Shown one piece after another: positions 307-44,678 of a stretch of DNA of 64,000 bases. Under the pieces are notes generated by a model. It was not told the DNA's origin, searched no databases, and saw only the letters and a list, made by a program, of their open reading frames with translations. Positions within the stretch are counted from its first letter, which is position 1. Each line of letters begins with the position of its first letter. Position numbers and translations under genes: made by a program. This DNA comes from a virus (taxonomy: Duplodnaviria; Caudoviricetes), in the IMG/VR virus record IMGVR_UViG_3300044614_001923; one strand, 5' to 3'.

Positions 307-1572
307 CTATTTCTTCTTATACTTATTTATGAAATTCTTAATTTCTTTTGTTCCCGTCATTTTCATTGTATATTCACGATATGCATCCGTTCCAACTTCT
401 CTTTGGTCGGCAGGAACTCCAGATTTGTTAGTAAATCCACTTTGAATATTTCTTGTTTGAGGGACAAATGCTCCGTATGATACGGGTTTATGATCCTCTT
501 TATCTGCTGCTTTTTTAGATTCCACCACATCTTTAATCCAACATTTAAACATAATACTATCTTCAGTAACGCAAATCAAATAATTTGTTCCTCTACGAAT
601 AATACGTCCAACTAGTCCAGTATTAAGATTTTCAACAATATCTCCAATTCTAAAAATGTTTTCTTGGATATAATTTTCACGAAGGTTTTTCCAATCCAAC
701 TTAGGAGCAATTTCCCAAAGATTCCATCCCTCTTTAATATTCATTGCAGCACGAATGGTATTATAGAGTTCTTTTGCTTGTTTCTCATTGAATGTGGAAG
801 GAACTCCTTTTCTAAAGGTTTTAAAATCTCCTTCTGCTGCGGCCTTTCTTTGCTTAGATGCAGACATACCAGACACATCATCTTCAGAATCAGGATCCCT
901 TTCCCCAGCAGAACGAACTTCTAAATTATCAAATTGATAGAGTTTACCATTATAATTATTGGAAAGTTTTTCAAACTCATTAACTCTATCAGCACCACCT
1001 ACAATTCTTACGTTAGTATATCCATCCATATGTGCCTTTTTAAGAACATCGAAGATGGTACGATTTGCCTGATCATTTATAATTCTTTCACTATGCTGAG
1101 GAAACATTTGCCTCATAACAGAAACTTTAGTATCAGCATCTAATGGATTCTTTTTCTTATCCTGACTTCTTGATGGAACAATAATATAATCACCATCATC
1201 AGAAGATGTTGCTACGGTATTTAAAAGTTTTTCATGTCCAGTTGTTGGTGGATTGAACCGCCCAAAAGCAATAGTTAAAGTTCCTTTTGTTTTTGGTACT
1301 GGAGGTGGACCTTCCACTTGAGGTTCTTGCTGAGACTGAACTTCTTTTGGAATTTCTTGATCCTTTACTTTTTTTTCTTGAGGAGGGTCTTGCTTTCCAA
1401 TTTTTTGATTTTTATTATAAAACTTAAGTTTTCCACCCTCAGTCTTCGCTGTAAATTCTCCATTTTTATCGTACCATCCACCATGCCCATCTCCAGTTAA
1501 ACCGAGACGAGATGCTTGCTGAACAGCAAGAGACTTTGATGCTTCAGAAAGAAATTGTAAAAAACTTTTCAT
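307..1572 (-). CDS. Cytidyltransferase-like (HIGH-superfamily) nucleotidyltransferase with N-terminal CTS-like leader
   Basis: FGRFNPPTTGHEKL (TxGH motif) and GMSASK (KMSKS-like); start reassigned to ATG 1572 (MKSFLQFLSE), downstream of ATAAATA at 1593-1599. Confidence 0.8.
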   Translation of the reverse strand: MKSFLQFLSEASKSLAVQQASRLGLTGDGHGGWYDKNGEFTAKTEGGKLKFYNKNQKIGKQDPPQEKKVKDQEIPKEVQSQQEPQVEGPPPVPKTKGTLTIAFGRFNPPTTGHEKLLNTVATSSDDGDYIIVPSRSQDKKKNPLDADTKVSVMRQMFPQHSERIINDQANRTIFDVLKKAHMDGYTNVRIVGGADRVNEFEKLSNNYNGKLYQFDNLEVRSAGERDPDSEDDVSGMSASKQRKAAAEGDFKTFRKGVPSTFNEKQAKELYNTIRAAMNIKEGWNLWEIAPKLDWKNLRENYIQENIFRIGDIVENLNTGLVGRIIRRGTNYLICVTEDSIMFKCWIKDVVESKKAADKEDHKPVSYGAFVPQTRNIQSGFTNKSGVPADQREVGTDAYREYTMKMTGTKEIKNFINKYKKK

Positions 1573-28426: not shown

Positions 28427-29842
28427 TCACATGAGGTTCTTGATTTGTACTCTTCTGTAGTAACGGTTCTTGTTGACAGTGAGAGCACCCAGACCCTGAT
28501 CTGAAGCATCGCCATGTGCAAATGGGTTTGCAACCAGACCATAACGGGTCTTGAAGCCAATCTTTGGCTGGAAGGTGTTTTCTCCAACTGCACGTACCAT
28601 CTGGAGAGGTACATAAGGGCAGTAGAAGAGACCTGCGTCGTAAGGTGAAGAACCCTTGTAACCAGCAACGTAGTACTGAGTTGCAGCACTGTTTGCTGAA
28701 TAAGGATCGATATAGACGCGGAACTTGCCCATCAGAACGCCAGCAAAAGTATTGCCAGTGTCATCAACGTTCAGGTTAGCGTTGAGTGCAGGGGTGTAAT
28801 CTAGAACACCAGCCATGCTCAGTGCTGAAGCAACGTCAGCGGAGCAAAGGATGATGTTGCCCTTTCCTCTACGAGTTCTTTGTGCGATTGCGTTAGCATC
28901 ACGCTCGATTTGGAACAGGAGACCCTTGAACTTCTCAACACTCCAACGTCCGTTTGAATCAACGTCAAGGTCAAAGATACCCTGAGTTGCAACGTTAGTA
29001 GCAGCGCCTTGCTCAGCAACCTTATAGATGGTTCTGATGACTTCGCGGTTGATTTCAGCAAGAATTTCGCTAGACAGAATGTTAGCGAGTTCTGCTTCAG
29101 CATTAAGACCATGAATTGCCTTCAGGTCTTGTGCAAGCTCAAGGCTGTACTCTGCTTTCAGAGCGCGTGACTTTGCTTCAACAAGAACTTTCTCGATTGA
29201 GAATGCCATCTCGTTGAACTGAGGACCACCATCAACGCCAAGATTCTCAGCGTCTCCAGTTCTCATACCCTGACCAACGTTATACAGGGCTTGGTCTTGG
29301 GTTGAAGTTGGGTTCAGAATACCTGGATTTGATCCAAGTTGACCGCTGGTAGTACCCATACCTACGTTAGGTGCAGTTGAACCTGCGGTATTACCAACAC
29401 CAGTGAAGGAACCAGCGAATGAAGTATCTGCTTCGTTGAACAGTGCTTCAGTTCCGCTCTGGCTATTGTAGCGTGAACGCATTGCGAAGATGAGTCCAGT
29501 AGGACCGTTCATTGGTTGAACGCCTGCGAGGTCATAAGCGACCAGATTAGGCATTGAACGTCTGATCAGTGAGATCAGAACAGGATCGAAACCTGCAACA
29601 GGACCACCTGCAACAGCACCACCACCATATCCACCACCACCAGCAGCGCCGTTAGCAGCATTGGTTGGGGTTTCGGTGAGGAATCCTTGCTGAGCAAAGG
29701 ATTGCTCTTCTCTTAGAAATCTTTCTTGGTTTTCGAGCAGGACAGCGGTTACGGCTCTTCTGTGTGAATCCTTGATTGGATCAAGACCTTCATAGTTCAG
29801 AAGGGGTGCCCACTTTTCCTGCAGATGCTCGGAATGGAACAT
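28427..29842 (-). CDS. gp23: Major capsid protein gp23
   Basis: KWAPLL, GVQPMNGPTGLIFAMRSRY, RALKAEYSLELAQDLKAIHG, FKTRYG. Confidence 0.98.
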   Translation of the reverse strand: MFHSEHLQEKWAPLLNYEGLDPIKDSHRRAVTAVLLENQERFLREEQSFAQQGFLTETPTNAANGAAGGGGYGGGAVAGGPVAGFDPVLISLIRRSMPNLVAYDLAGVQPMNGPTGLIFAMRSRYNSQSGTEALFNEADTSFAGSFTGVGNTAGSTAPNVGMGTTSGQLGSNPGILNPTSTQDQALYNVGQGMRTGDAENLGVDGGPQFNEMAFSIEKVLVEAKSRALKAEYSLELAQDLKAIHGLNAEAELANILSSEILAEINREVIRTIYKVAEQGAATNVATQGIFDLDVDSNGRWSVEKFKGLLFQIERDANAIAQRTRRGKGNIILCSADVASALSMAGVLDYTPALNANLNVDDTGNTFAGVLMGKFRVYIDPYSANSAATQYYVAGYKGSSPYDAGLFYCPYVPLQMVRAVGENTFQPKIGFKTRYGLVANPFAHGDASDQGLGALTVNKNRYYRRVQIKNLM

Positions 29843-29895: not shown

Positions 29896-31068
29896 TCAGT
29901 TTTTGGCAACAACTGAAAGAGCTTTCAGATAAGCATTCATTGAATCTGAGTGATACTCAGTTGCAACGTCTACTCCTTCAGAAAGAGTTTCAGATTTTGC
30001 TGATTGAGTTGTTGATTTTGAAGGGAAATATGATTCCTTCAAAGTCTCCAGTTTCTCACGATATTGTGACTCACTTTCAAACTCAACACTTTCGGCAAGT
30101 GAAGCGAGCTTTTCCTTCTGAGAAAGTGCTAGACCCTCAGAAATTTCATCAAAGATTCCATCAGCAACCGACTCGGAGAGACGCTTGTTGAGTGAAATGT
30201 TCTTCTCAATTTGCTCGTTGAGTTTTGTCTCCATATCATCAAGTTTTTCTACCATGCTCTCAAGCACATCATATTTATCTTCAGGGATTGATACATAATG
30301 ATCTTCAAAAAGTCCTTTCAGACCAGTCATGAAGGACTCACTGAGTTCTTCCTTCAGACCGCTTTGAACGGAAAGTTGATTTTCTGAAATCCATTCGTCA
30401 GCAACGTATTCCAGATAAGCGTCAACACGCTCCTGGAGTTCTGACTTAATTGATTCTACAGTTTCAACTAATCTCTGCTCATAAGCAGACTCATATTCTT
30501 CTTCTAGAGTTTCGCGGATTTCAGCAACTTTTGATCTCAGAGCAGATTCAAAGATAGTTTTTGCTTTATCTTTGAATTCCTCTGAAAGATCTGCCTCATC
30601 TCCAGCATTGAGGAGAGCATTTACGTCATCTTCAATATCAAATGACTCTTCAATCTCTTCCTCTTCCTCTTCCTCTTCCTCTTCTTCCTCTACTTCTTCA
30701 ATTTCTTCAGTAGATTCGGAATCATCTTCGAGTTCTTGCTCTTCATCAAGAAGATCTTCGTCATCAACTTCCTCTTCCTCTTTAACAGCACCAGACAGTT
30801 TCTGCATAGAATCTGCACCTTTGGCGCCACGAGTAACTACATCACTAACAGTCTTTAGTGATGGTTCTTTAAGTTTTGATGAATCATCATCAGACTTATA
30901 GTTTTCTGGAGTAGGTCCACCAAGATCTTCCCAACTACCTGTTTGTCCAGGAGCAATACCTGTAGTTAGCTTTGGCATAGCTTCTGCAGGTTTTGCACCA
31001 GAATTTACGGCAGTTTTGGATTGCTTAGTGCCTGCTTCCATTTCTTGTAATTGATTGCCACGAGACAT
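29896..31068 (-). CDS. gp22: Prohead core scaffold protein gp22
   Basis: Highly acidic; FKDKAKTIFESA and VDAYLEYVADEW; position between gp21 and gp23. Confidence 0.9.
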   Translation of the reverse strand: MSRGNQLQEMEAGTKQSKTAVNSGAKPAEAMPKLTTGIAPGQTGSWEDLGGPTPENYKSDDDSSKLKEPSLKTVSDVVTRGAKGADSMQKLSGAVKEEEEVDDEDLLDEEQELEDDSESTEEIEEVEEEEEEEEEEEEIEESFDIEDDVNALLNAGDEADLSEEFKDKAKTIFESALRSKVAEIRETLEEEYESAYEQRLVETVESIKSELQERVDAYLEYVADEWISENQLSVQSGLKEELSESFMTGLKGLFEDHYVSIPEDKYDVLESMVEKLDDMETKLNEQIEKNISLNKRLSESVADGIFDEISEGLALSQKEKLASLAESVEFESESQYREKLETLKESYFPSKSTTQSAKSETLSEGVDVATEYHSDSMNAYLKALSVVAKN

Positions 31069-31133: not shown

Positions 31134-31787
31134 TTATAGTGAATTTAAGAAGTCGTTGAAAAGATTAATCTTATTTTCTTCAAGTTGTTTTTGATCTACT
31201 AAACTATTGATTTTTTTATATGCTTGAGAAGCATACTTCTCACGAAGAATACCTCCATCCCATACCCATTCTTTACCTTCCATGATTCCCTGAACAAAAG
31301 CATCAGGTGCAGAAGGATCTGCAACAATATCTGCTGCAGTTGCAAGCATAAAGTCTTCACCGACTTCTTTATATCCTTCTCTATGATTTTCTTTCAGAGA
31401 TCCGATTCCCCGAGAAGATACGCCAAGAGTAACTCCGTCCTTGAGAAGTGACTCTGCAATTTTACCCATTGGAGTGGATAGAATTTGTGCTTTACCGATA
31501 AAATTATTTCCTTCACGATAGAGTTCAATAATTTTATGTGATACTCTATCCAGATTTATAGTTGGACCATCAGGATGTCCAAGTTCACCAAGAGCACGTC
31601 CTTTTTCAACATATTGTTCAGTATAACGCTTTACTTCACGTTCCATAATGGACATAGGATACATCCTTCCATTACGGTTAACACATTCTGCTTGAAGAAA
31701 AGGACCCTTAACGAAAAGTTTTTGTTGTTTTCCAGTTCCTTCTGTAAGAACTTCTACCTTTTCGATTTCTTCTCTGATTAGTTTCAT
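31134..31787 (-). CDS. gp21: Prohead protease gp21
   Basis: ALGELGHP, RVSH, GVSSRGIGS, DIVADPSAP. Confidence 0.96.
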   Translation of the reverse strand: MKLIREEIEKVEVLTEGTGKQQKLFVKGPFLQAECVNRNGRMYPMSIMEREVKRYTEQYVEKGRALGELGHPDGPTINLDRVSHKIIELYREGNNFIGKAQILSTPMGKIAESLLKDGVTLGVSSRGIGSLKENHREGYKEVGEDFMLATAADIVADPSAPDAFVQGIMEGKEWVWDGGILREKYASQAYKKINSLVDQKQLEENKINLFNDFLNSL

Positions 31788-37315: not shown

Positions 37316-37561
37316 TTACCAATCTGGATATTCCCAAACTGTGTTATCTAATGCTGATTTTTGTGGGTATAATTTTCTACTTTTTTTGATTCTTTTTATG
37401 GTACATTCTTTGCATTCATAAGAATATGATGAAGGAACAGATCCTCTATCTTTTCTAGTTCTATAAAAAGAGTCGATTAAATTTTTTATTTGACCGCAAG
37501 ATCTACACTTTCTATCGTTTAATAGAAGATGACCTAATCTTATTTGTCCATCTAAGTCCAT
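37316..37561 (-). CDS. Small CxxC...CxxC zinc-finger-like protein
   Basis: CRSC and CKEC; TAATG overlap with gp17 stop. Confidence 0.65.
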   Translation of the reverse strand: MDLDGQIRLGHLLLNDRKCRSCGQIKNLIDSFYRTRKDRGSVPSSYSYECKECTIKRIKKSRKLYPQKSALDNTVWEYPDW

Positions 37562-39207
37562 TAGACATAATCCCACATATAGGACATATCACCATATTCA
37601 TCAGAAAACCATCTGTCTCCATCAGAATCTACAAAACTAGAATTATCTAATCCATCAACAACAAAACCAAATGGTGACATATCTTGTTCTATTTGATTTT
37701 TTTGCTCTTCATACAATCTCTTTCTAATATCTTGATCAGTGAGTTCTTTAAAGTAATCTTGTGCAACTAGCCATGCATAAATTACAAGACACATTGCAAG
37801 GTCATCATTACATCCATCTTCAGCTTCAAATGAATTGTTTTTCTGTATAAAGGTTGTTAACTCTGCTATGATTTCATAATCATTAAAAATAAGTTTATCT
37901 TCCTCAATTAAAGTTTTTAAATTCAGTGAACCAACTTTTTTTACAGTTTTGGACATCTTAACGCCAAGTTGCGTTTTCTTACCAGAAAATCCTTGCCCAA
38001 CAATTTGACCAGCTCTACCTCTCATAGAACACATGAGGACATTTTGATATTCTAAATCATAATGCAATAAAGATGCTACCTGATCACCTATATCATTTAC
38101 CTCACAAAGAATGTATGCGCGGTTATAATTTTTTGCTACTTCATAAATGATATTTGGAAATAGCATTGGTTTAATCTCATTGTTTCTATATTTTGCGACA
38201 ACTTTATGTGGAAATTCAGTTATATCAACTACGACAAAAGCTGAATAGTCCTCACTGACTCCTCTTGCAACGTCAACTGTAATAATATAGTCGTGTCCTT
38301 GAACCACGTCCTCATAAACATCTAGACCAGCATTCCTTTTTATTGGATTATCATACACTAAATTTCTCAATTTGCTTGGCGCAATTAGTGTATCGACTGA
38401 TCCTAAGAATTCACATTCAAACTCAATTTTGAATTGTTGTTCTGAAGTGTTGTTAATTGTTTGTTCTTTCCAGGCAGCGTCTCTTCCAGGAACTTCTGAC
38501 CAATGAACATCAGTTGGTACGTATTCATTTTTTCCCTTTTCCGCATCATGCCACATTCGGTAGAAATGATTCATACCGTGTGGCGTAGATACTACAATAA
38601 CCTTAGTATTTTTACCAGATGAAATTGTTGGGTATACGGATGCAAAGAAATCGTCAGCAATATGATTTGGAACGAAAGCAAATTCGTCCAAGAACAAGAT
38701 ATTAAATGACATACCTCTTACTGCTGATGCAGAAGTTGAAGCAGCAAGTATTTTTGATCCGTTTTCTAATTCAATATTTCCTTTATTCCAAGCAATAATT
38801 CCCTGCTGCATCCATTTTGGTAAATTTTCATATGCTGTTGCAAGTCTACTTAAAAGTTCTCTAGCAGTTGCAGCCTTGTTTGCAAGAATACCAATATTGA
38901 CACTATCGTTAAAAATTAGATAATGTAAGAGATAAGAAACTACAGTTGTAGATTTGCCTGTCTGGCGAGGCATTTTACAAATGTTAAATCTATGTTTATG
39001 AAAGTTATTAATTAACTTTTCTTGAAAGTGGTATGGATGAAATTGAGTTAATCCCTCATCAAGAGAAACAATTTTAATATAATTATTTGCAAAATAAACT
39101 GGATCATCTTTACACTTAACAAATTCTAAAATTTGTTCCTGACTAAATTCAATTTGAGTATTTGCTCTTTTTAAATTTGGATTGCCAAGATATACATTAT
39201 CAGTCAT
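37561..39207 (-). CDS. gp17: Terminase large subunit gp17
   Basis: PRQTGKS, LFLDEFAF, VSTPHG, DDLAM; no intein-size insertion. Confidence 0.97.
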   Translation of the reverse strand: MTDNVYLGNPNLKRANTQIEFSQEQILEFVKCKDDPVYFANNYIKIVSLDEGLTQFHPYHFQEKLINNFHKHRFNICKMPRQTGKSTTVVSYLLHYLIFNDSVNIGILANKAATARELLSRLATAYENLPKWMQQGIIAWNKGNIELENGSKILAASTSASAVRGMSFNILFLDEFAFVPNHIADDFFASVYPTISSGKNTKVIVVSTPHGMNHFYRMWHDAEKGKNEYVPTDVHWSEVPGRDAAWKEQTINNTSEQQFKIEFECEFLGSVDTLIAPSKLRNLVYDNPIKRNAGLDVYEDVVQGHDYIITVDVARGVSEDYSAFVVVDITEFPHKVVAKYRNNEIKPMLFPNIIYEVAKNYNRAYILCEVNDIGDQVASLLHYDLEYQNVLMCSMRGRAGQIVGQGFSGKKTQLGVKMSKTVKKVGSLNLKTLIEEDKLIFNDYEIIAELTTFIQKNNSFEAEDGCNDDLAMCLVIYAWLVAQDYFKELTDQDIRKRLYEEQKNQIEQDMSPFGFVVDGLDNSSFVDSDGDRWFSDEYGDMSYMWDYV

Positions 39208-39212
39208 AAAAG

Positions 39213-40487
39213 TTACCTTTGTTCAATCCAGTTCAATACTGCAAGTGCTTTTTTGTTGGTATTTGGAGATGCACAAGCAAGTGTATAAGTGTCACTAATT
39301 GTTCCAATGCCACTTCTACCTAACTGAAGTGCTGCTTTAATATCAAGATCAACTAACGCACCACTACCATTAATTACAAAACCACTCAAAAGATCACTTC
39401 CACCAGATACTGCAGTTTGAGTGATATTATACTGCATAAAGGAGTTTGGATCGGGATGATTTACCCAAGTTCCTCCAGTCAGTGTTGCATTTTGTAGAAG
39501 TTGCCAATAAACATTCGTATTGTCATCAGTTGCTGCCTGTAATGATCTCAAGAGCATTACACCAGTTAGATTATTGGATTTTAAACGAATGCTTATAATT
39601 GGATAGAATGTATTTGCTGATGCCATCGTTGTCCCTGTGATGGGATTTGATATGCTCAAAAGAGTTCCGAGTTTTTCTGGTTCTCCTTCCTGAATAAGAG
39701 AATTAGAACCCTGATACATGTAATGAGTTCCTGCAACACCAGTTACATTTTCTATCTCAAGTCTAATAGGCAAGAAAGGAGTGGAACACCAAACTCCTGG
39801 GTTGGTATTTGCATTATCAAAAGTATGAGATGCAACAGTCTCATTCTTCATTAACCAAGCAAATTGAATTATACCTGCACCATACCATTCATAATTGATG
39901 GAAATCATTTGTTGTTTTGTTGGATCTGCAGTTACTCCAGTCCACCCATTACCATCAAACTTCTCACCATTCCATTCATCTCTGTATACTCTGGTTTCTG
40001 TAACAATTCCAGTTACACTACTACGGAGCACATAAGAATATGTTCCTCCATCATCCTCAAAATAAACACCGTTGTTTTCATCAAACAATCCAAATCTTCT
40101 ACGAATACCTACTTTTGGTTGTTCTAGACGAACTGCGAATGCGAGTGTTGCACCTCTGCCAGGAATGTATCTCATCACATTCTTGGTTTGGCGAATTACT
40201 TTGCTTCCTGTAGTGGAACCAACTTGCATTATAACATTACTGGCATTTGCATTAAATGTTGCAGTTCCAACTCCAACTACTCTTTCATCCCATACATCAG
40301 TCTCTTTACCATACTGGAAGGTGTTGAAGAATACTGTTTGATAAGGAGATATTTTGAATCTGTTGTTGTTGGTAAATTGAGGTCTCCAGTCTGTCTGGTT
40401 TCCCCAGTGATCTGCGATATTATAAACTTCAAATAAAGATCTTTCTTGATTTAGAAAGTCTTGTTCGTTCTTATTCCATATAGCCAT
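39213..40487 (-). CDS. Hypothetical beta-rich protein, likely virion-associated
   Basis: 424-aa ORF, Thr/Gly/aromatic-rich, in the late cluster between gp16 and gp17. Confidence 0.6.
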   Translation of the reverse strand: MAIWNKNEQDFLNQERSLFEVYNIADHWGNQTDWRPQFTNNNRFKISPYQTVFFNTFQYGKETDVWDERVVGVGTATFNANASNVIMQVGSTTGSKVIRQTKNVMRYIPGRGATLAFAVRLEQPKVGIRRRFGLFDENNGVYFEDDGGTYSYVLRSSVTGIVTETRVYRDEWNGEKFDGNGWTGVTADPTKQQMISINYEWYGAGIIQFAWLMKNETVASHTFDNANTNPGVWCSTPFLPIRLEIENVTGVAGTHYMYQGSNSLIQEGEPEKLGTLLSISNPITGTTMASANTFYPIISIRLKSNNLTGVMLLRSLQAATDDNTNVYWQLLQNATLTGGTWVNHPDPNSFMQYNITQTAVSGGSDLLSGFVINGSGALVDLDIKAALQLGRSGIGTISDTYTLACASPNTNKKALAVLNWIEQR

Positions 40488-40490
40488 AAA

Positions 40491-40808
40491 TTAAATCCAC
40501 TCTAATTTTCCTGGATGATATCGTTTTGCGTTTTGAATATTAAAATTCTTTTCTTCCGCAGGATAGATATTATGGACAATTGCTCCAGGATAGTTTCCTT
40601 GAAGTTGTTCTCCTAATTCCTGTTTAGATGGAACTCCTGTTTTTGTGACAAGTTCAAGTCTATATATGCTGCCTTGCCACATAACATCGGCAACGTAACT
40701 TTCCCCCACTTGCTGAGGTTGTTCTGGTTGTGAGTTGATGTAGAGATTTCCGTTGAAATCTCCTGAGATGTTTACTGACTCAGATAGAAACTGTTTGAAA
40801 CTTTTCAT
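40491..40808 (-). CDS. Small protein with CTS-like leader (MKSFKQFLSE)
   Basis: Start reassigned to ATG 40808; body similar to a module of the 759-aa ORF. Confidence 0.7.
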   Translation of the reverse strand: MKSFKQFLSESVNISGDFNGNLYINSQPEQPQQVGESYVADVMWQGSIYRLELVTKTGVPSKQELGEQLQGNYPGAIVHNIYPAEEKNFNIQNAKRYHPGKLEWI

Positions 40809-40813
40809 TTTAA

Positions 40814-43093
40814 TCACCACTTAACCTTGTTTGCCCAGTATGCTGCAGACATTGGACCTTTATCAATGTTTTTTGCATGTCTTGTTTTAAATCTTTTACG
40901 TCGACTTGCATATTCTTTAGATTCTCCTTCTTTTTTGGGGGAACCTTTTACACCTCTTTGCCCAAAACGAATAATTTTTTCTTTTCCATCTGAACATGCC
41001 TTGACAACATGAGATTTGCCAGTCAGAGAATCACCAACTGCTTGTGCTTTTGGTTTATTGCATTTCATTTTATCTTTATCAATTGATTCTGCAAATGCTT
41101 GGAGAATTTGCTCGCCTGGCATAATATTATCTGCTTTAAAGTAAGTTACCTTACCTCCTGGATAGATCTTATTAATTTGATCTTGAACTTCCCCTCTATT
41201 AGGCATTTTTGAATTTGGGAAGAAGATCTTTAATGAGTAAAAAGATCCTTTCCAGGAAACATAAACTAATAAAAGATTTCCGCGTGCAGATTTTAGGGAT
41301 ACTGCCTCTTCAATTTGCTCTCCCATTGGTTTCACATAATTTTTATTTGGGCCTGGTTTTGCTGCACTTCCTCCAGCTGGTTTTTCATGATGGTCTTCTC
41401 CACAGGTTATGCAAGGAGACTGTCCACACTTACAATTACACTCTTTCTTTTCTTCTTTTACTAGAGGATCTGGTTTGATAAGATCTACAAATTCTACGAA
41501 AGGATTTCCATTTGCATCAGTAACAACAACACTTTCATTTGCAGATTTCCATCCACCACCTGCTTTCTTATATTCTTTAGCAGCCCAACCATTTGCATAA
41601 GCAGAAGGATATACATCAAACTTTGCTTTTGCCTTTGCCTTCATCTTAGACCAAAGTGAAGGATTAGTGGGAACGTTCTTTTCATTAAGAACTTCTGCTT
41701 CCATCTCAAGTAAAATTTTATCTACTAAAGAAGGTTCATAACCAGCATTAACGACTCCTGTTTTAATGCTTCCTTTTGCTAATGATGGTCCAGTTGTTTT
41801 TCTTTCCGCTGCTGCTCTCTCACCCTCAGTAGATCCTCTCTGAGCAAGAGTTCTAATCTTAGCAGCACGATTTTGTTCTCTATGCTTTTTGGGATCAATT
41901 GCCGCTGGAATTGCACTTTCAGGAACACAATTAGGAACTTCTTTCTTACCCTTCTTCTTCATCCCCACTTGCTTGTAACCTTTCCAACACGCTTCTTCAA
42001 TCTCGGATTCCCCGCTTTCAAGATAGTCCGCTGCAGTATCAATATAATCTGCCGCTTTGGTAATCTTTGATTGCACCCATGCCTCTAAATCACCTTCGCC
42101 TTTATTAACTTTATTCTTCAGTCTCGAAACTGCTTTAGAAATAGTTTCAAGTTCAGATCTTGCCATTGAATATTCTTCATCTTTAATTGAAACTTTATCC
42201 CATGCTTTTTCGCCATAAGCACATTCTGAACGGATTTCTCTCTTATCACAAAGCGGACAATATCTTTCCTCTTCACCACTCATATCATGCTCATGTTCTT
42301 CTGTTCTTGCTGCTCTCATATCCTGCCTTGCTCTCATCACATCATCTCTAGAAATAGCACCCCTAGTCCATGGATCCTCTGCAGCGGCTTTAACTGCTTG
42401 TGATCTTGTTAATGGTTTTGGTTTTACCGCATTTGGTTTATCCTCACCATACTTCGCAGTGGATTTTTTAGATCTGGTTGGTACATAAACCTTCCCTCCA
42501 CTACCAGTTGTTCCAATCTGCTTTCTTCCTTTTATTTTATCAACTAGATCACCGACTAAACCTTCTTCAATATTATTAGAAGACATGATTGGTTTTCCTC
42601 CCTTTCCTTTGCGATTTGCTACAGGATCTGCTTTTCTTTTTCTTTTTACTGAAGCAGCAATCTCACTCTTAGACATTTTTTCTGCCTTTTCATTTGAAAG
42701 ACATTTTGGTTTTGGTTCTCCAGGTTCACGCGCACATGGTCCAATTGCTTCACCTTTAGTGTTATATCTCTTCCAATTTCCTTCGGGATGATCTTTATCA
42801 AACCAGTTTCTTAGATCTTCATATGCTATTTTCTTTTTACTATGTTTAATTTCCCCTTTTTGTTTAGCAATCAATTTATTTGAATATTCCTGAGCATGGG
42901 ATGTGCTAGAAACATTCTCATCTGGAATTCCTTTTTTAGCAGTATCATAAATGTCAATATCACCATCAGCATCACGATCAACATACTGAACTGTTGCATG
43001 ATGAACCAACTGCTTTAAATCCAGATTTGGATCCAGCTGATGTTGTTTTTTTGGAAGATGGGGTGTTTTGTGAGAAAATTTTGGAGTTTTCAT
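40814..43093 (-). CDS. Multi-module basic/Cys-containing protein, candidate gp21-processed polyprotein
   Basis: 759 aa of short Lys-rich modules separated by Glu sites; ATAAATA at 43202-08. Confidence 0.7.
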   Translation of the reverse strand: MKTPKFSHKTPHLPKKQHQLDPNLDLKQLVHHATVQYVDRDADGDIDIYDTAKKGIPDENVSSTSHAQEYSNKLIAKQKGEIKHSKKKIAYEDLRNWFDKDHPEGNWKRYNTKGEAIGPCAREPGEPKPKCLSNEKAEKMSKSEIAASVKRKRKADPVANRKGKGGKPIMSSNNIEEGLVGDLVDKIKGRKQIGTTGSGGKVYVPTRSKKSTAKYGEDKPNAVKPKPLTRSQAVKAAAEDPWTRGAISRDDVMRARQDMRAARTEEHEHDMSGEEERYCPLCDKREIRSECAYGEKAWDKVSIKDEEYSMARSELETISKAVSRLKNKVNKGEGDLEAWVQSKITKAADYIDTAADYLESGESEIEEACWKGYKQVGMKKKGKKEVPNCVPESAIPAAIDPKKHREQNRAAKIRTLAQRGSTEGERAAAERKTTGPSLAKGSIKTGVVNAGYEPSLVDKILLEMEAEVLNEKNVPTNPSLWSKMKAKAKAKFDVYPSAYANGWAAKEYKKAGGGWKSANESVVVTDANGNPFVEFVDLIKPDPLVKEEKKECNCKCGQSPCITCGEDHHEKPAGGSAAKPGPNKNYVKPMGEQIEEAVSLKSARGNLLLVYVSWKGSFYSLKIFFPNSKMPNRGEVQDQINKIYPGGKVTYFKADNIMPGEQILQAFAESIDKDKMKCNKPKAQAVGDSLTGKSHVVKACSDGKEKIIRFGQRGVKGSPKKEGESKEYASRRKRFKTRHAKNIDKGPMSAAYWANKVKW

Positions 43094-43245
43094 TCAACTG
43101 GTTTTGATTTTGTCTTTTCACCTTTTGCTCTCTTTTTTCTCGCAGCGCAATGGGCACGTTGAGAAAATCCTTTTGGATTTGAGCAATCAATACTCTTTTT
43201 ATATTTATTAGACCAATCTTCTTGAAATTGTTTAAATGTCTTCAT
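43090..43245 (-). CDS. Small basic protein (51 aa, MKTFKQFQEDWSNKYKKSIDCSNPKGFSQRAHCAARKKR...)
   Basis: Translated by hand; overlaps gp16 stop; ATGA overlap with 759-aa ORF; not in ORF track. Confidence 0.75.
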   Translation of the reverse strand: MKTFKQFQEDWSNKYKKSIDCSNPKGFSQRAHCAARKKRAKGEKTKSKPVE

Positions 43246-43681
43246 TTTTTGTTTGTTGTTTAAGAAGTTTTGCTAATTCTGCAGTTGAACCAACAAATAA
43301 TGCATTTGTTACATTAGTTGGACCTTTTGATTGCTTTTCTTCTTCAATATCTTTTAGTTTTTTCTGTAAATCCATTAACTTATCTGTAGCATCTGCTACA
43401 TTTTTAATTAATTGTCCAGCAACTTCATATGCTCTGGGCATTTCACTTTCTTGAGCAAGTTCAAGAATTCCATTAATTGCCTCTTGACCTTTTTCTATTA
43501 AAGAATATAAATTACCTCTAGTATATTCATAGTCTTTTTTTATGTGATCAGATTCTGTAGACTTTGATATTTTTTCAATCTTCTCAACAGAAGTCTCAGA
43601 AACTTCCACTGGAGAAATTTCTGAAACCTCATCATTGGAAAGTCCAAATGTTTGATTTAGGCTGTCAAAATTTTTTTTCAT
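43232..43681 (-). CDS. gp16: Terminase small subunit gp16
   Basis: DYEYTRGNLYSLIEKG, PRAYEVAGQLIK, NALFVGSTAEL. Confidence 0.92.
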   Translation of the reverse strand: MKKNFDSLNQTFGLSNDEVSEISPVEVSETSVEKIEKISKSTESDHIKKDYEYTRGNLYSLIEKGQEAINGILELAQESEMPRAYEVAGQLIKNVADATDKLMDLQKKLKDIEEEKQSKGPTNVTNALFVGSTAELAKLLKQQTKNEDI

Positions 43682-43682
43682 A

Positions 43683-44678
43683 TCAGAAAGATGAATTGAA
43701 TCCAAAATCATCACCGTAACTTACAAGCGCATCATCAGCTGCTGTTATCTTATAAATTTGCGATCCAAGTAGATGATTTGTTATTCTTGTTCCATAAGAA
43801 CCTCTTGTAACATTCAATTTGTTTCCTGTTTTACTAGTTACAAATAATGTCTCATTGTCTATGGAAATGTATGATTTAACTGGAATATTTGTAGCATCGG
43901 ATACTTCAAAGACTGCATCTGAAATTTGAATATCTGTCTCTAGAACCGCAACAGTTTGATTTGCGAGTGAAGTAGTTGCTTTTGGTTCTGAAGTATAAGT
44001 AACATCTCTGTTTGTAGAATTTGCACCTCCAGAAAGATATCCAATAGAAACTTTTTTGATGATATCTTTTTCGACACCAGTTGCAATTGGGCCAAACAGA
44101 TAAGTTTTTGCATTGAACTTTAAAGTATAAATTAATGCTCTTCGAGTTGAAAAATCTCCCTCATAGTCATCTTCCATTGTAATACCTTCAAGGGTTATTG
44201 GAATATCTCTTTTTTCTCCAATAGTATCAAGTAAATCAACCGTAAGAGTATATGATGGTTGAAAATAAGGAACAATTTGTTCAATAATTTGCAACATATC
44301 ATCATTTAATTTTGTCATTATACTCATTTCAAATTGCATGGTGTATGGAACAGGCATGTATGCCTTTCTTAAATCACCTTCAGAAGTTTTTGAAATAAAT
44401 GTTTGAGTTGTTTGTAGTTTTCTAGAAACGTCATAAAATAATCCGTTAAATTCAAATGACATTCTTGGCAATGTAATTTGAACTGGATTGTTTAAATCAT
44501 CTGGAGACTCTCTAAGTCTTGATAAAAACTTTTGAGTGGGACCATATGCTAAAGGAACCTTAACAACTTCGACAACATTACCACTATTGTCTGTTTTCTT
44601 TATCTGTATATTATTAAATAAGGTTCCAAAAGTTACAATAGTTCTTCTTAGAGTCTCGTGATAAAAATATTCAAACAT
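43683..44678 (-). CDS. gp15: Tail sheath terminator gp15
   Basis: FGTLFNNI, VPLAYGP, LPRMSFE, QIVPYFQP. Confidence 0.92.
   Translation of the reverse strand: MFEYFYHETLRRTIVTFGTLFNNIQIKKTDNSGNVVEVVKVPLAYGPTQKFLSRLRESPDDLNNPVQITLPRMSFEFNGLFYDVSRKLQTTQTFISKTSEGDLRKAYMPVPYTMQFEMSIMTKLNDDMLQIIEQIVPYFQPSYTLTVDLLDTIGEKRDIPITLEGITMEDDYEGDFSTRRALIYTLKFNAKTYLFGPIATGVEKDIIKKVSIGYLSGGANSTNRDVTYTSEPKATTSLANQTVAVLETDIQISDAVFEVSDATNIPVKSYISIDNETLFVTSKTGNKLNVTRGSYGTRITNHLLGSQIYKITAADDALVSYGDDFGFNSSF

What the first reader, a model, noticed from the sequence alone, without database searches (positions are those of the whole stretch)
40491..41290. Same domain occurs both stand-alone with a CTS leader and as an internal polyprotein module
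Seen: YVADVMWQGSIYRLELVTKTGVPSKQELGEQLQGNYPGAIV (small ORF) aligns by eye with LLVYVSWKGSFYSLKIFFPNSKMPNRGEVQDQINKIYPGGKV (759-aa ORF), sharing VxWxGSxYxL...P...E...Q....YPG..V. Inference: a module can be delivered either by its own leader or by fusion into the polyprotein, which supports the modular cargo model.
Basis: seen in the sequence. Interest (0 to 1): 0.6.

Follow-up and report, generated by a model that had tools for sequence, protein, structure and literature searches.

The report
Shared mini-domain in cyanophage head-cargo genes
A T4-like ocean cyanophage carries the same small protein domain twice, once as a short gene that starts with the tag phage T4 uses to load proteins into its head, and once inside a long chain of shuffled modules right after a head-protease-type cutting motif, so the virus probably packs this domain into its capsid by two routes, although no cut or packaging has been measured.

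Summary
The 105-aa ORF (true start ATG 40808) and residues ~600-657 of the 759-aa ORF share one domain. Evidence: BLASTP E 1e-5; profile-profile 97.4%, E 1.3e-11; the same strand-strand-helix-strand topology in both AlphaFold models; reciprocal Foldseek hits.

The window is a T4-like cyanomyovirus, in the known g15-g18 hyperplastic region.

The small ORF starts MKSFKQFLSE. This fits T4's capsid targeting sequence MKTYQEFIAE at the four positions shown to matter in T4. Two unrelated genes in the window carry a similar leader.

In 118 of 125 cluster representatives the internal copy follows [LIVMF]-x-E (the T4-type protease motif), usually then Ala or Ser. In some stand-alone forms the leader's Glu sits at or near that position.

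A gp21-type protease is encoded at 31134-31787. A homologue of the long protein is annotated "virion protein" in phage S-SCSM1.

The "two delivery formats" reading is therefore supported by sequence, but packaging and cleavage are inferred. The long protein has no such leader.

The two copies are old paralogues, not a recent duplication.

The fold has no convincing solved relative, and the function is unknown.

This scan noted the same pattern on other cyanophage genomes. I found no paper describing it.

The parts
40491..40808 (-). Small ORF, 105 aa (P0002), member of phrog_1742. It consists of a leader MKSFKQFLSE, a conserved SVNISGDFNGNLYIN segment, a variable linker, a strand-strand-helix-strand domain and a conserved tail RYHPGKLEWI.
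   Evidence: phrog_1742, E 3.4e-46; 137 phage records, alignments start at residue 5 of the GTG-started ORF; >2000 clusters
40779..40808 (-). CTS-like leader MKSFKQFLSE (residues 1-10), ending in the L-S-E protease-type motif and followed by Ser.
   Evidence: Sequence. M1 K2 F7 E10 S11 are invariant in 19 homologues. The peptide is conserved while codons vary synonymously. T4 CTS is MKTYQEFIAE (PMC8442874); roles of residues 4, 7, 8 and 10 are from PMC9026906.
40560..40703 (-). Strand-strand-helix-strand domain of the small ORF (residues 36-83).
   Evidence: AF2 model; hhalign; Foldseek BFVD
40814..43093 (-). 759-aa mosaic protein (P0001): a chain of at least ten small modules that are shuffled among cyanomyoviruses. 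This gene lies upstream of gp17 in the fetched relatives and varies from 367 to 759 aa.
   Evidence: (ten different PHROGs on different segments)
41090..41305 (-). Embedded copy of the domain (residues 597-668; strands 605-614 and 617-625, helix 633-643, strand 648-657).
41306..41314 (-). Junction I-E-E directly before the embedded domain (residues 594-596; predicted cut after E596, next residue Ala).
   Evidence: Sequence. Across 125 representatives, P3 is L/I/V/M/F in 119, P1 is Glu in 119, both together in 118, and P1' is A/S in 102.
43090..43245 (-). 51-aa ORF with leader MKTFKQFQED plus a basic WSNKYKKSIDC module. Its stop overlaps the start of the 759-aa ORF (ATGA).
31134..31787 (-). gp21-type prohead protease (Peptidase_S77), the candidate enzyme for the predicted cuts.
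   Evidence: E 2.6e-36
307..1572 (-). Unrelated 421-aa gene that also starts with the leader (MKSFLQFLSE), showing that the leader is portable.

Best explanation
The small ORF and residues ~600-657 of the 759-aa protein are paralogous copies of one ~55-residue strand-strand-helix-strand domain (shown). Both genes belong to a head-cargo set that T4-like cyanophages keep in the g16-g17 gap. The inferred mechanism has three steps. (1) The small protein is carried into the assembling prohead by its ten-residue T4-type capsid targeting leader. (2) The phage's gp21-type protease removes that leader after Glu10. (3) The embedded copy reaches the head as part of the long mosaic protein and is released by the same protease at the I-E-E|A junction. 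The mature pieces would stay in the capsid with the DNA and probably enter the next host with it, as T4 internal proteins do. The module's biochemical role is unknown.
For: Homology. Leader: MKSFKQFLSE against T4 MKTYQEFIAE has an aromatic residue at 4, Phe at 7, an aliphatic residue at 8 and Glu at 10. These are the positions that T4 genetics ties to targeting (4, 7) and processing (8, 10) (PMC9026906). It is conserved as a peptide despite synonymous codon changes. A similar leader heads three unrelated genes in this window and at least 8 payload families in related loci, always at the first Met on the gene strand. Junction: [LIVMF]-x-E precedes the embedded module in 118 of 125 representatives, against a background of 2.1% per position, while P4-P6 and the upstream module vary. 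In the stand-alone Sf-FS3 gene 117 the leader's Glu10 is in exactly the register of the internal junction Glu; in P0250 and S-SSM7 gene 139 it lies within one or two residues of it. All eight [LIVM]xE sites of the 759-aa protein, as I placed the modules by eye, lie at module borders. A gp21 homologue is encoded in the window. The major capsid protein has L-T-E|T where T4 gp23 is cut (the T4 position is from my own knowledge). The S-SCSM1 homologue of the long protein is annotated 'virion protein' in a record whose paper detected virion proteins by mass spectrometry. Stand-alone and fused states have interchanged several times.
Against: No experiment shows packaging or cleavage in any cyanophage. 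The 759-aa protein, and long relatives that begin with the WSxKYK module, lack the leader, so their targeting is unexplained. The total number of [LIVM]xE sites in the 759-aa protein is not above shuffled expectation (8 against 10.6). The C-terminal border of the module fits the motif only in part. The small ORF's S-SCSM1 orthologue is annotated only 'hypothetical protein', not 'virion protein'. The mature small protein is acidic (pI 5.2), unlike the basic T4 internal proteins. The [LIVMF]xE|A motif could be a structural cap of the domain. The T4 consensus L/I-x-E is quoted from my own knowledge, apart from the CTS sequence itself.
Confidence: 0.6

Rival explanations
1. The domain is shared by descent, but the long protein is an uncleaved multidomain virion or accessory protein. 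On this view the [LIVMF]xE|A motif is part of the domain or of acidic linkers, not a cutting site, and only gene-level domain shuffling is real.
For: The overall motif count in the 759-aa protein is not enriched. There is no leader on the long protein. The C-terminal border fits the motif only partly. No cleavage data exist.
Against: P3 and P1 are held in 118 of 125 representatives while the neighbouring positions and the upstream module vary. AF2 models the residues just after the junction, the first 8 of the module, as coil with low confidence. The small family folds the same domain without the motif directly in front of it. In stand-alone forms the motif is supplied by the leader.
Confidence: 0.25
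2. The MKSFKQFLSE start is not a capsid address. The small ORF would then be a non-virion late or regulatory protein whose N-terminus merely resembles the T4 tag.
For: The S-SCSM1 orthologue is not annotated as a virion protein. The mature part is acidic. Ten residues make a short match.
Against: The leader matches T4 at all four functionally mapped positions. The same leader sits on unrelated payloads within the structural gene block. Selection acts on the peptide. Small proteins are often missed by shotgun proteomics (my own knowledge).
Confidence: 0.12
3. The resemblance between the two segments is a chance match of short motifs.
For: Only 17 identities over 51 residues in the pair itself.
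Against: Profile-profile E 1.3e-11, identical predicted topology and reciprocal structural hits.
Confidence: 0.01

Closest known systems
[quoted passage not shown]
   Same: There is a ten-residue N-terminal leader with an aromatic residue at 4, Phe at 7, an aliphatic residue at 8 and Glu at 10. The leader is portable across unrelated payloads. A gp21-family protease is encoded by the same phage. The genes sit in a hypervariable region.
   Different: The mature parts show no sequence similarity to T4 internal proteins. The small protein is acidic. The cyanophage set also includes a long chain of modules with internal protease-type motifs and no leader, which T4 internal proteins (cut once) do not have. 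The location is between g16 and g17. Nothing has been tested experimentally.
Multiply cleaved head and inner-body proteins of giant phages phiKZ, 201phi2-1 and SPN3US (gp21-like protease, cuts after Glu at S/A-x-E)
   Same: One gene product would be cut at several x-x-Glu sites by a T4-gp21-related protease, with fragments kept in the head (PMC9026906).
   Different: The motif differs (hydrophobic at P3 here, small residues there). The proteins are unrelated. There the cuts mostly remove propeptides, whereas here each piece is a separate shuffled module that also exists as a free gene.
phrog_1742 (small ORF) and the DUF6321/DUF5872-containing 'hypothetical/virion protein' genes upstream of gp17 in Kyanoviridae (T4-like gene cluster 119 in the S-SM2 record)
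   Same: The small ORF is a plain member of phrog_1742. The 759-aa ORF is the gene at the same position next to gp17 and shares many modules with these genes.
   Different: These families carry no functional description. The window's long protein ends in a phrog_7595-type module rather than the DUF6321-type tail of the fetched named phages; that tail has no Pfam hit here.

Membership tests
T4-type CTS-bearing capsid internal proteins | N-terminal ~10-residue capsid targeting sequence with the residues needed for targeting (positions 4 and 7) | tested here: met
   MKSFKQFLSE has F4 and F7, against Y4 and F7 in MKTYQEFIAE. F7 is invariant and position 4 is F or Y in homologues.
T4-type CTS-bearing capsid internal proteins | gp21 processing site at the end of the leader (aliphatic residue at 8, Glu at 10) | tested here: met
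   L8 and E10 are followed by Ser. E10 and S11 are invariant. This is a sequence criterion only.
T4-type CTS-bearing capsid internal proteins | gp21-family prohead protease and gp22-type scaffold encoded by the same phage | tested here: met
   Peptidase_S77 E 2.6e-36 at 31134-31787; T4_CASP E 1.1e-74 at 29896-31068.
T4-type CTS-bearing capsid internal proteins | Physical presence in the capsid, removal of the leader, ejection with the DNA | not testable with these tools
   The only indirect hint is that the long protein's S-SCSM1 homologue is annotated 'virion protein'.
T4-type CTS-bearing capsid internal proteins | Small, highly basic mature protein | tested here: not met
   The mature small ORF has pI 5.2. 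The embedded copy (pI 9.8) and the 51-aa ORF (pI 10.1) are basic.
Prohead-protease-processed polyprotein (as in phiKZ-type head proteins) | Protease-type motif at the borders of the pieces | tested here: met
   [LIVMF]xE precedes the module in 118 of 125 representatives. Similar motifs precede other modules. By my own placement of the modules, all 8 sites of the 759-aa protein lie at module borders.
Prohead-protease-processed polyprotein (as in phiKZ-type head proteins) | Observed fragments or neo-N-termini in virions | not testable with these tools
   No peptide-level data were reachable. The S-SCSM1 supplement lists only gene annotation.
phrog_1742 | Full-length match to the family profile | tested here: met
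   E 3.4e-46, residues 5-103 of the GTG-started ORF against profile positions 1-98 of 108.
Known solved folds (T7 Gp2, phi29 p6 or p56, archaeal/eukaryotic ribosomal proteins) | Structural match clearly above background | tested here: inconclusive
   Best Foldseek PDB E is 0.33. Best VIA-align Z is 5.9, below the tool's stated typical best of 7-8 for unmatched models.

The most novel reading that the evidence does not exclude
T4-like cyanophages run a T4-type 'address tag plus head protease' system on a combinatorial library of mini-domains. The same domain is loaded into the capsid either as its own tagged gene or as a bead on a cuttable chain. Beads and free genes interconvert over evolution by gaining or losing the tag at the very residue where the protease cuts. 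The acidic free copy and the basic chain copy of this domain would then be two specialised, injected effectors, for example against host defences.
Probability: 0.35. Interest if true: 0.75.

Novelty: new variant of a known kind. Interest (0 to 1): 0.55.

Why it matters
T4-like cyanophages are among the most abundant viruses in the ocean, yet what they carry inside the capsid besides DNA is essentially unknown. If the leader and the junction motif work as in T4, then a large and very common set of 'hypothetical' genes becomes a defined class of capsid-delivered proteins. That set includes more than 2000 clusters at 90% identity for the small ORF and 475 clusters at 50% identity for the domain. 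The interchange between a free gene and a bead on a chain would show how such cargo evolves. It also gives clear targets for virion N-terminomics and for the search for injected anti-defence factors.

Tried and rejected
- The search for related loci with the 15-sequence module alignment found no conserved stretch to search with. A 6-sequence subset worked.
- The search for homologous proteins on residues 590-670 of the long protein gave only two near-identical hits, so diversity came from tblastn on phage records and from IMG/VR loci.
- PDB fold searches gave nothing above background, so no function is claimed from the fold.
- The protein-atlas feature search only returned the small ORF's own unnamed clusters.
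- No whole genome is held for this window, so leaders were counted in the window only.
- The S-SCSM1 supplement has no peptide-level table.
- A simple enrichment test of [LIVM]xE in the 759-aa protein was negative (8 observed against 10.6 expected). Only the placement and conservation of the sites carry weight.
- No T4 late-promoter box TATAAATA lies in or near the g16-g17 cluster, so the genes are presumably read within the late structural operon.
- A frameshift fusion of the 51-aa ORF to the long ORF was considered. It was set aside because the 51-aa ORF with its own stop is conserved in many loci.
- Literature searches for a cyanophage CTS, DUF6321 or gp21 propeptides in cyanophage found no description.

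Full report
**Context.** The window is part of a T4-like cyanomyovirus (Kyanoviridae-type). On the minus strand lie, in order:
- gp15, 43683-44678
- gp16, the small terminase, 43232-43714
- a 51-aa ORF, 43090-43245
- a 759-aa ORF, 40814-43093
- a small ORF, 40491-40808
- a 424-aa virion structural protein, 39213-40487
- gp17, 37561-39207
- an endonuclease VII-like gene
- gp18

Further on come gp19, gp20, the gp21 protease (31134-31787), the gp22 scaffold and the gp23 capsid protein. The g15-g18 interval is a known hypervariable region of cyanomyoviruses (PMC2984593).

**The observation.** Both quoted peptides are present. tblastn hits in 137 phage records begin at residue 5 of the GTG-started ORF. 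The real start is therefore ATG 40808, five bases after the TGA of the 759-aa ORF, and the product is 105 aa beginning MKSFKQFLSE.

The similarity is real:
- BLASTP of the two window proteins gives E 1e-5.
- hhalign of a small-ORF family alignment against 16 copies of the polyprotein-type module gives 97.4% probability, E 1.3e-11 over 55 columns.
- AlphaFold2 models show the same strand-strand-helix-strand order in both.
- Each model retrieves the other family from the BFVD library of viral models.
- The ESM-Atlas shape search finds the module at TM 0.71-0.81 in viral clusters of 80 to 575 aa with different domain partners (DUF192, DUF6321, DUF5872, DUF5661).

**What the long protein is.** Its counterparts in other cyanophages occupy the same position but range from 367 to 759 aa and contain the same small modules in different orders and numbers. 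Ten different PHROG families hit separate segments of the window's protein. The S-SCSM1 homologue is annotated 'virion protein' in a record whose paper identified 45 virion proteins by mass spectrometry. That this particular protein was among them is my inference from the annotation.

**Stand-alone versus fused forms.** A profile of the domain finds 475 representative clusters (50% identity level) among 1.84 billion proteins. Of the 149 retrieved of the 150 best, 91 are longer than 300 aa, 42 are 141-300 aa and 16 are 140 aa or shorter. The module sits at the start, the middle or the end. Some short ones may be gene fragments.

In complete phage genomes, the polyprotein-type module stands alone between gp16 and gp17 as Sf-FS3 gene 117 (82 aa, MKSFQKFLGE|GVERIAQYGN...) and S-SSM7 gene 139 (83 aa).

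A tree of 42 copies has few columns and many open forks. It puts the small-ORF family in one clade (100/100) on a long branch. The other stand-alone copies are scattered among embedded ones, with at least five changes forced by well-supported branches. The window's two copies are therefore old paralogues, and the free/fused switch has happened repeatedly elsewhere in the family.

**The leader.** T4's capsid targeting sequence is MKTYQEFIAE (PMC8442874). T4 genetics places targeting mainly at residues 4 and 7 and processing at residues 8 and 10 (PMC9026906). The small ORF has F4, F7, L8 and E10.
- In 19 homologues M1, K2, F7, E10 and S11 are invariant.
- Nineteen distinct DNA versions show free synonymous variation (three to six codons at Ser3, Leu8, Ser9 and Ser11), so the peptide is what is conserved.
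- In this window a similar leader also heads the 51-aa ORF (MKTFKQFQED) and a 421-aa gene at 307-1572 (MKSFLQFLSE).
- In the fetched loci it heads at least eight unrelated payloads, always at the first Met on the gene strand.

**The junction.** Immediately before the embedded module, 119 of 125 representatives have Glu at P1 and 119 have L/I/V/M/F at P3. Both occur together in 118, and 102 have Ala or Ser at P1'. P4-P6 and the preceding module vary. The background frequency of [LIVMF]xE is 2.1% per position. The window has I-E-E|A (residues 594-597).
- AlphaFold models the residues just after the junction, the first eight of the module, as low-confidence coil.
- The small family folds the same domain without the motif directly in front of it, so the motif is not needed for the fold.
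- In Sf-FS3 gene 117 the leader's Glu10 lies in exactly the register of the internal junction Glu; in P0250 (MKDFKQFISE|AP...) and S-SSM7 gene 139 it lies within one or two residues of it. This is the strongest argument that the leader end and the internal junction are the same kind of site.
- Similar hydrophobic-x-Glu motifs precede several other modules (CWxGY, WFGK, AAWTKK/DWQKVN, and some copies of the YCPxC and DACYHK modules).
- All eight [LIVM]xE sites of the 759-aa protein fall, by my own reading of where the modules begin and end, at module borders, although their total number is not above shuffled expectation.
- The capsid protein has L-T-E|T 28 residues before the conserved core, where T4 gp23 is cut. 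The T4 position and the L/I-x-E consensus are from my own knowledge.

**Mechanism proposed.**
- Shown: the homology, the leader, the junction motif, the protease gene, and the natural occurrence of free and embedded forms.
- Inferred: the small protein is targeted to the prohead core by its leader and trimmed after Glu10. The long protein is incorporated by an unknown route, since it has no leader, and cut by the gp21 homologue at its junctions, releasing the basic embedded copy (pI 9.8). The pieces stay with the DNA and are probably ejected into the host.
- The function of the domain is unknown. PDB searches give only background-level matches (Foldseek E at best 0.33; VIA-align Z at best 5.9).

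**What speaks against this.** There is no measurement of packaging or cutting. The long protein has no leader. The mature small protein is acidic (pI 5.2). The C-terminal border fits the motif only in part. The small ORF's S-SCSM1 orthologue lacks the 'virion protein' label.

**Comparison with known systems and novelty.** It works like the T4 internal-protein/CTS/gp21 system, and in the multiple-cut aspect like the processed head proteins of phiKZ-type phages. It is not homologous to those cargo proteins. The chain-of-shuffled-modules format with free/fused interchange is not described in the papers I could search. I class it as a new variant of a known kind.

**Earlier notes of this scan.** Other first-reader notes record the same free/embedded domain pair on other cyanophage genomes. 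Follow-up reports on other genomes reached a similar reading of the polyprotein. I used these as leads only.

Noticed in passing
window 43090-43245 (minus strand); L004 1466-1621; L008 1352-1471; L005 923-1351: The 51-aa ORF (leader plus WSNKYKKSIDC module) is conserved, and its stop overlaps (ATGA) or abuts the long ORF's start in about half of the related loci. The same module is fused at the N-terminus of, or lies inside, the long protein in other phages. In S-SM2 gene 108 it follows a vestigial internal leader (KTFEEFRES). Its position 10 is often Asp, which in T4 allows targeting but blocks processing.
   Followed up: partly
window 28427-29842 (minus strand), residues 53-62 of gp23: The major capsid protein has GFLTE|TPTNAANG at the position expected for the gp21 cut. 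S-SM2 gene 108 has its leader followed by the similar TPTNSVGNGG.
   Followed up: no
Fold search atlas, row 9: The domain model also matches a 181-aa viral cluster in which 80% of members carry the S-AdoMet lyase family (PF23780). I could not tell whether this is a fusion with the module or a partial likeness of folds.
   Followed up: no
L004 1618-3474, L005 1348-3474, L008 1468-3465: The long proteins of Bellamy, S-SM2 and SynMITS9220M01 contain a stretch (FVTLPLNIEIP...ALEVNRGWF) that I take to be the DUF192 domain seen on atlas clusters of such proteins. It is preceded by V-K-E|S in Bellamy and S-SM2 and followed by I-x-I-E-E|G in all three, so folded domains as well as mini-modules ride in the chain.
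   Followed up: no
window, residues 38-50 of the 759-aa ORF (about nt 42944-42982, minus strand): A DRDADGDIDIYD stretch resembles a calcium-binding loop. Sf-CH8's long protein has DHDADGDVDNND.
   Followed up: no
L009 3500-6142 (Synechococcus phage B23): The gene annotated as terminase is 880 aa, against about 548 aa elsewhere. This may be an insertion such as an intein. In L022 and L023 the ORF that starts like gp17 is only 293 aa.
   Followed up: no
window 39213-40487 (minus strand): A 424-aa 'virion structural protein' (phrog_1645, E 6e-181) follows the small ORF in several relatives (Sf-CH8, DSL-LC02, S-CAM9). It is replaced by other proteins in S-SCSM1 and S-B43.
   Followed up: no
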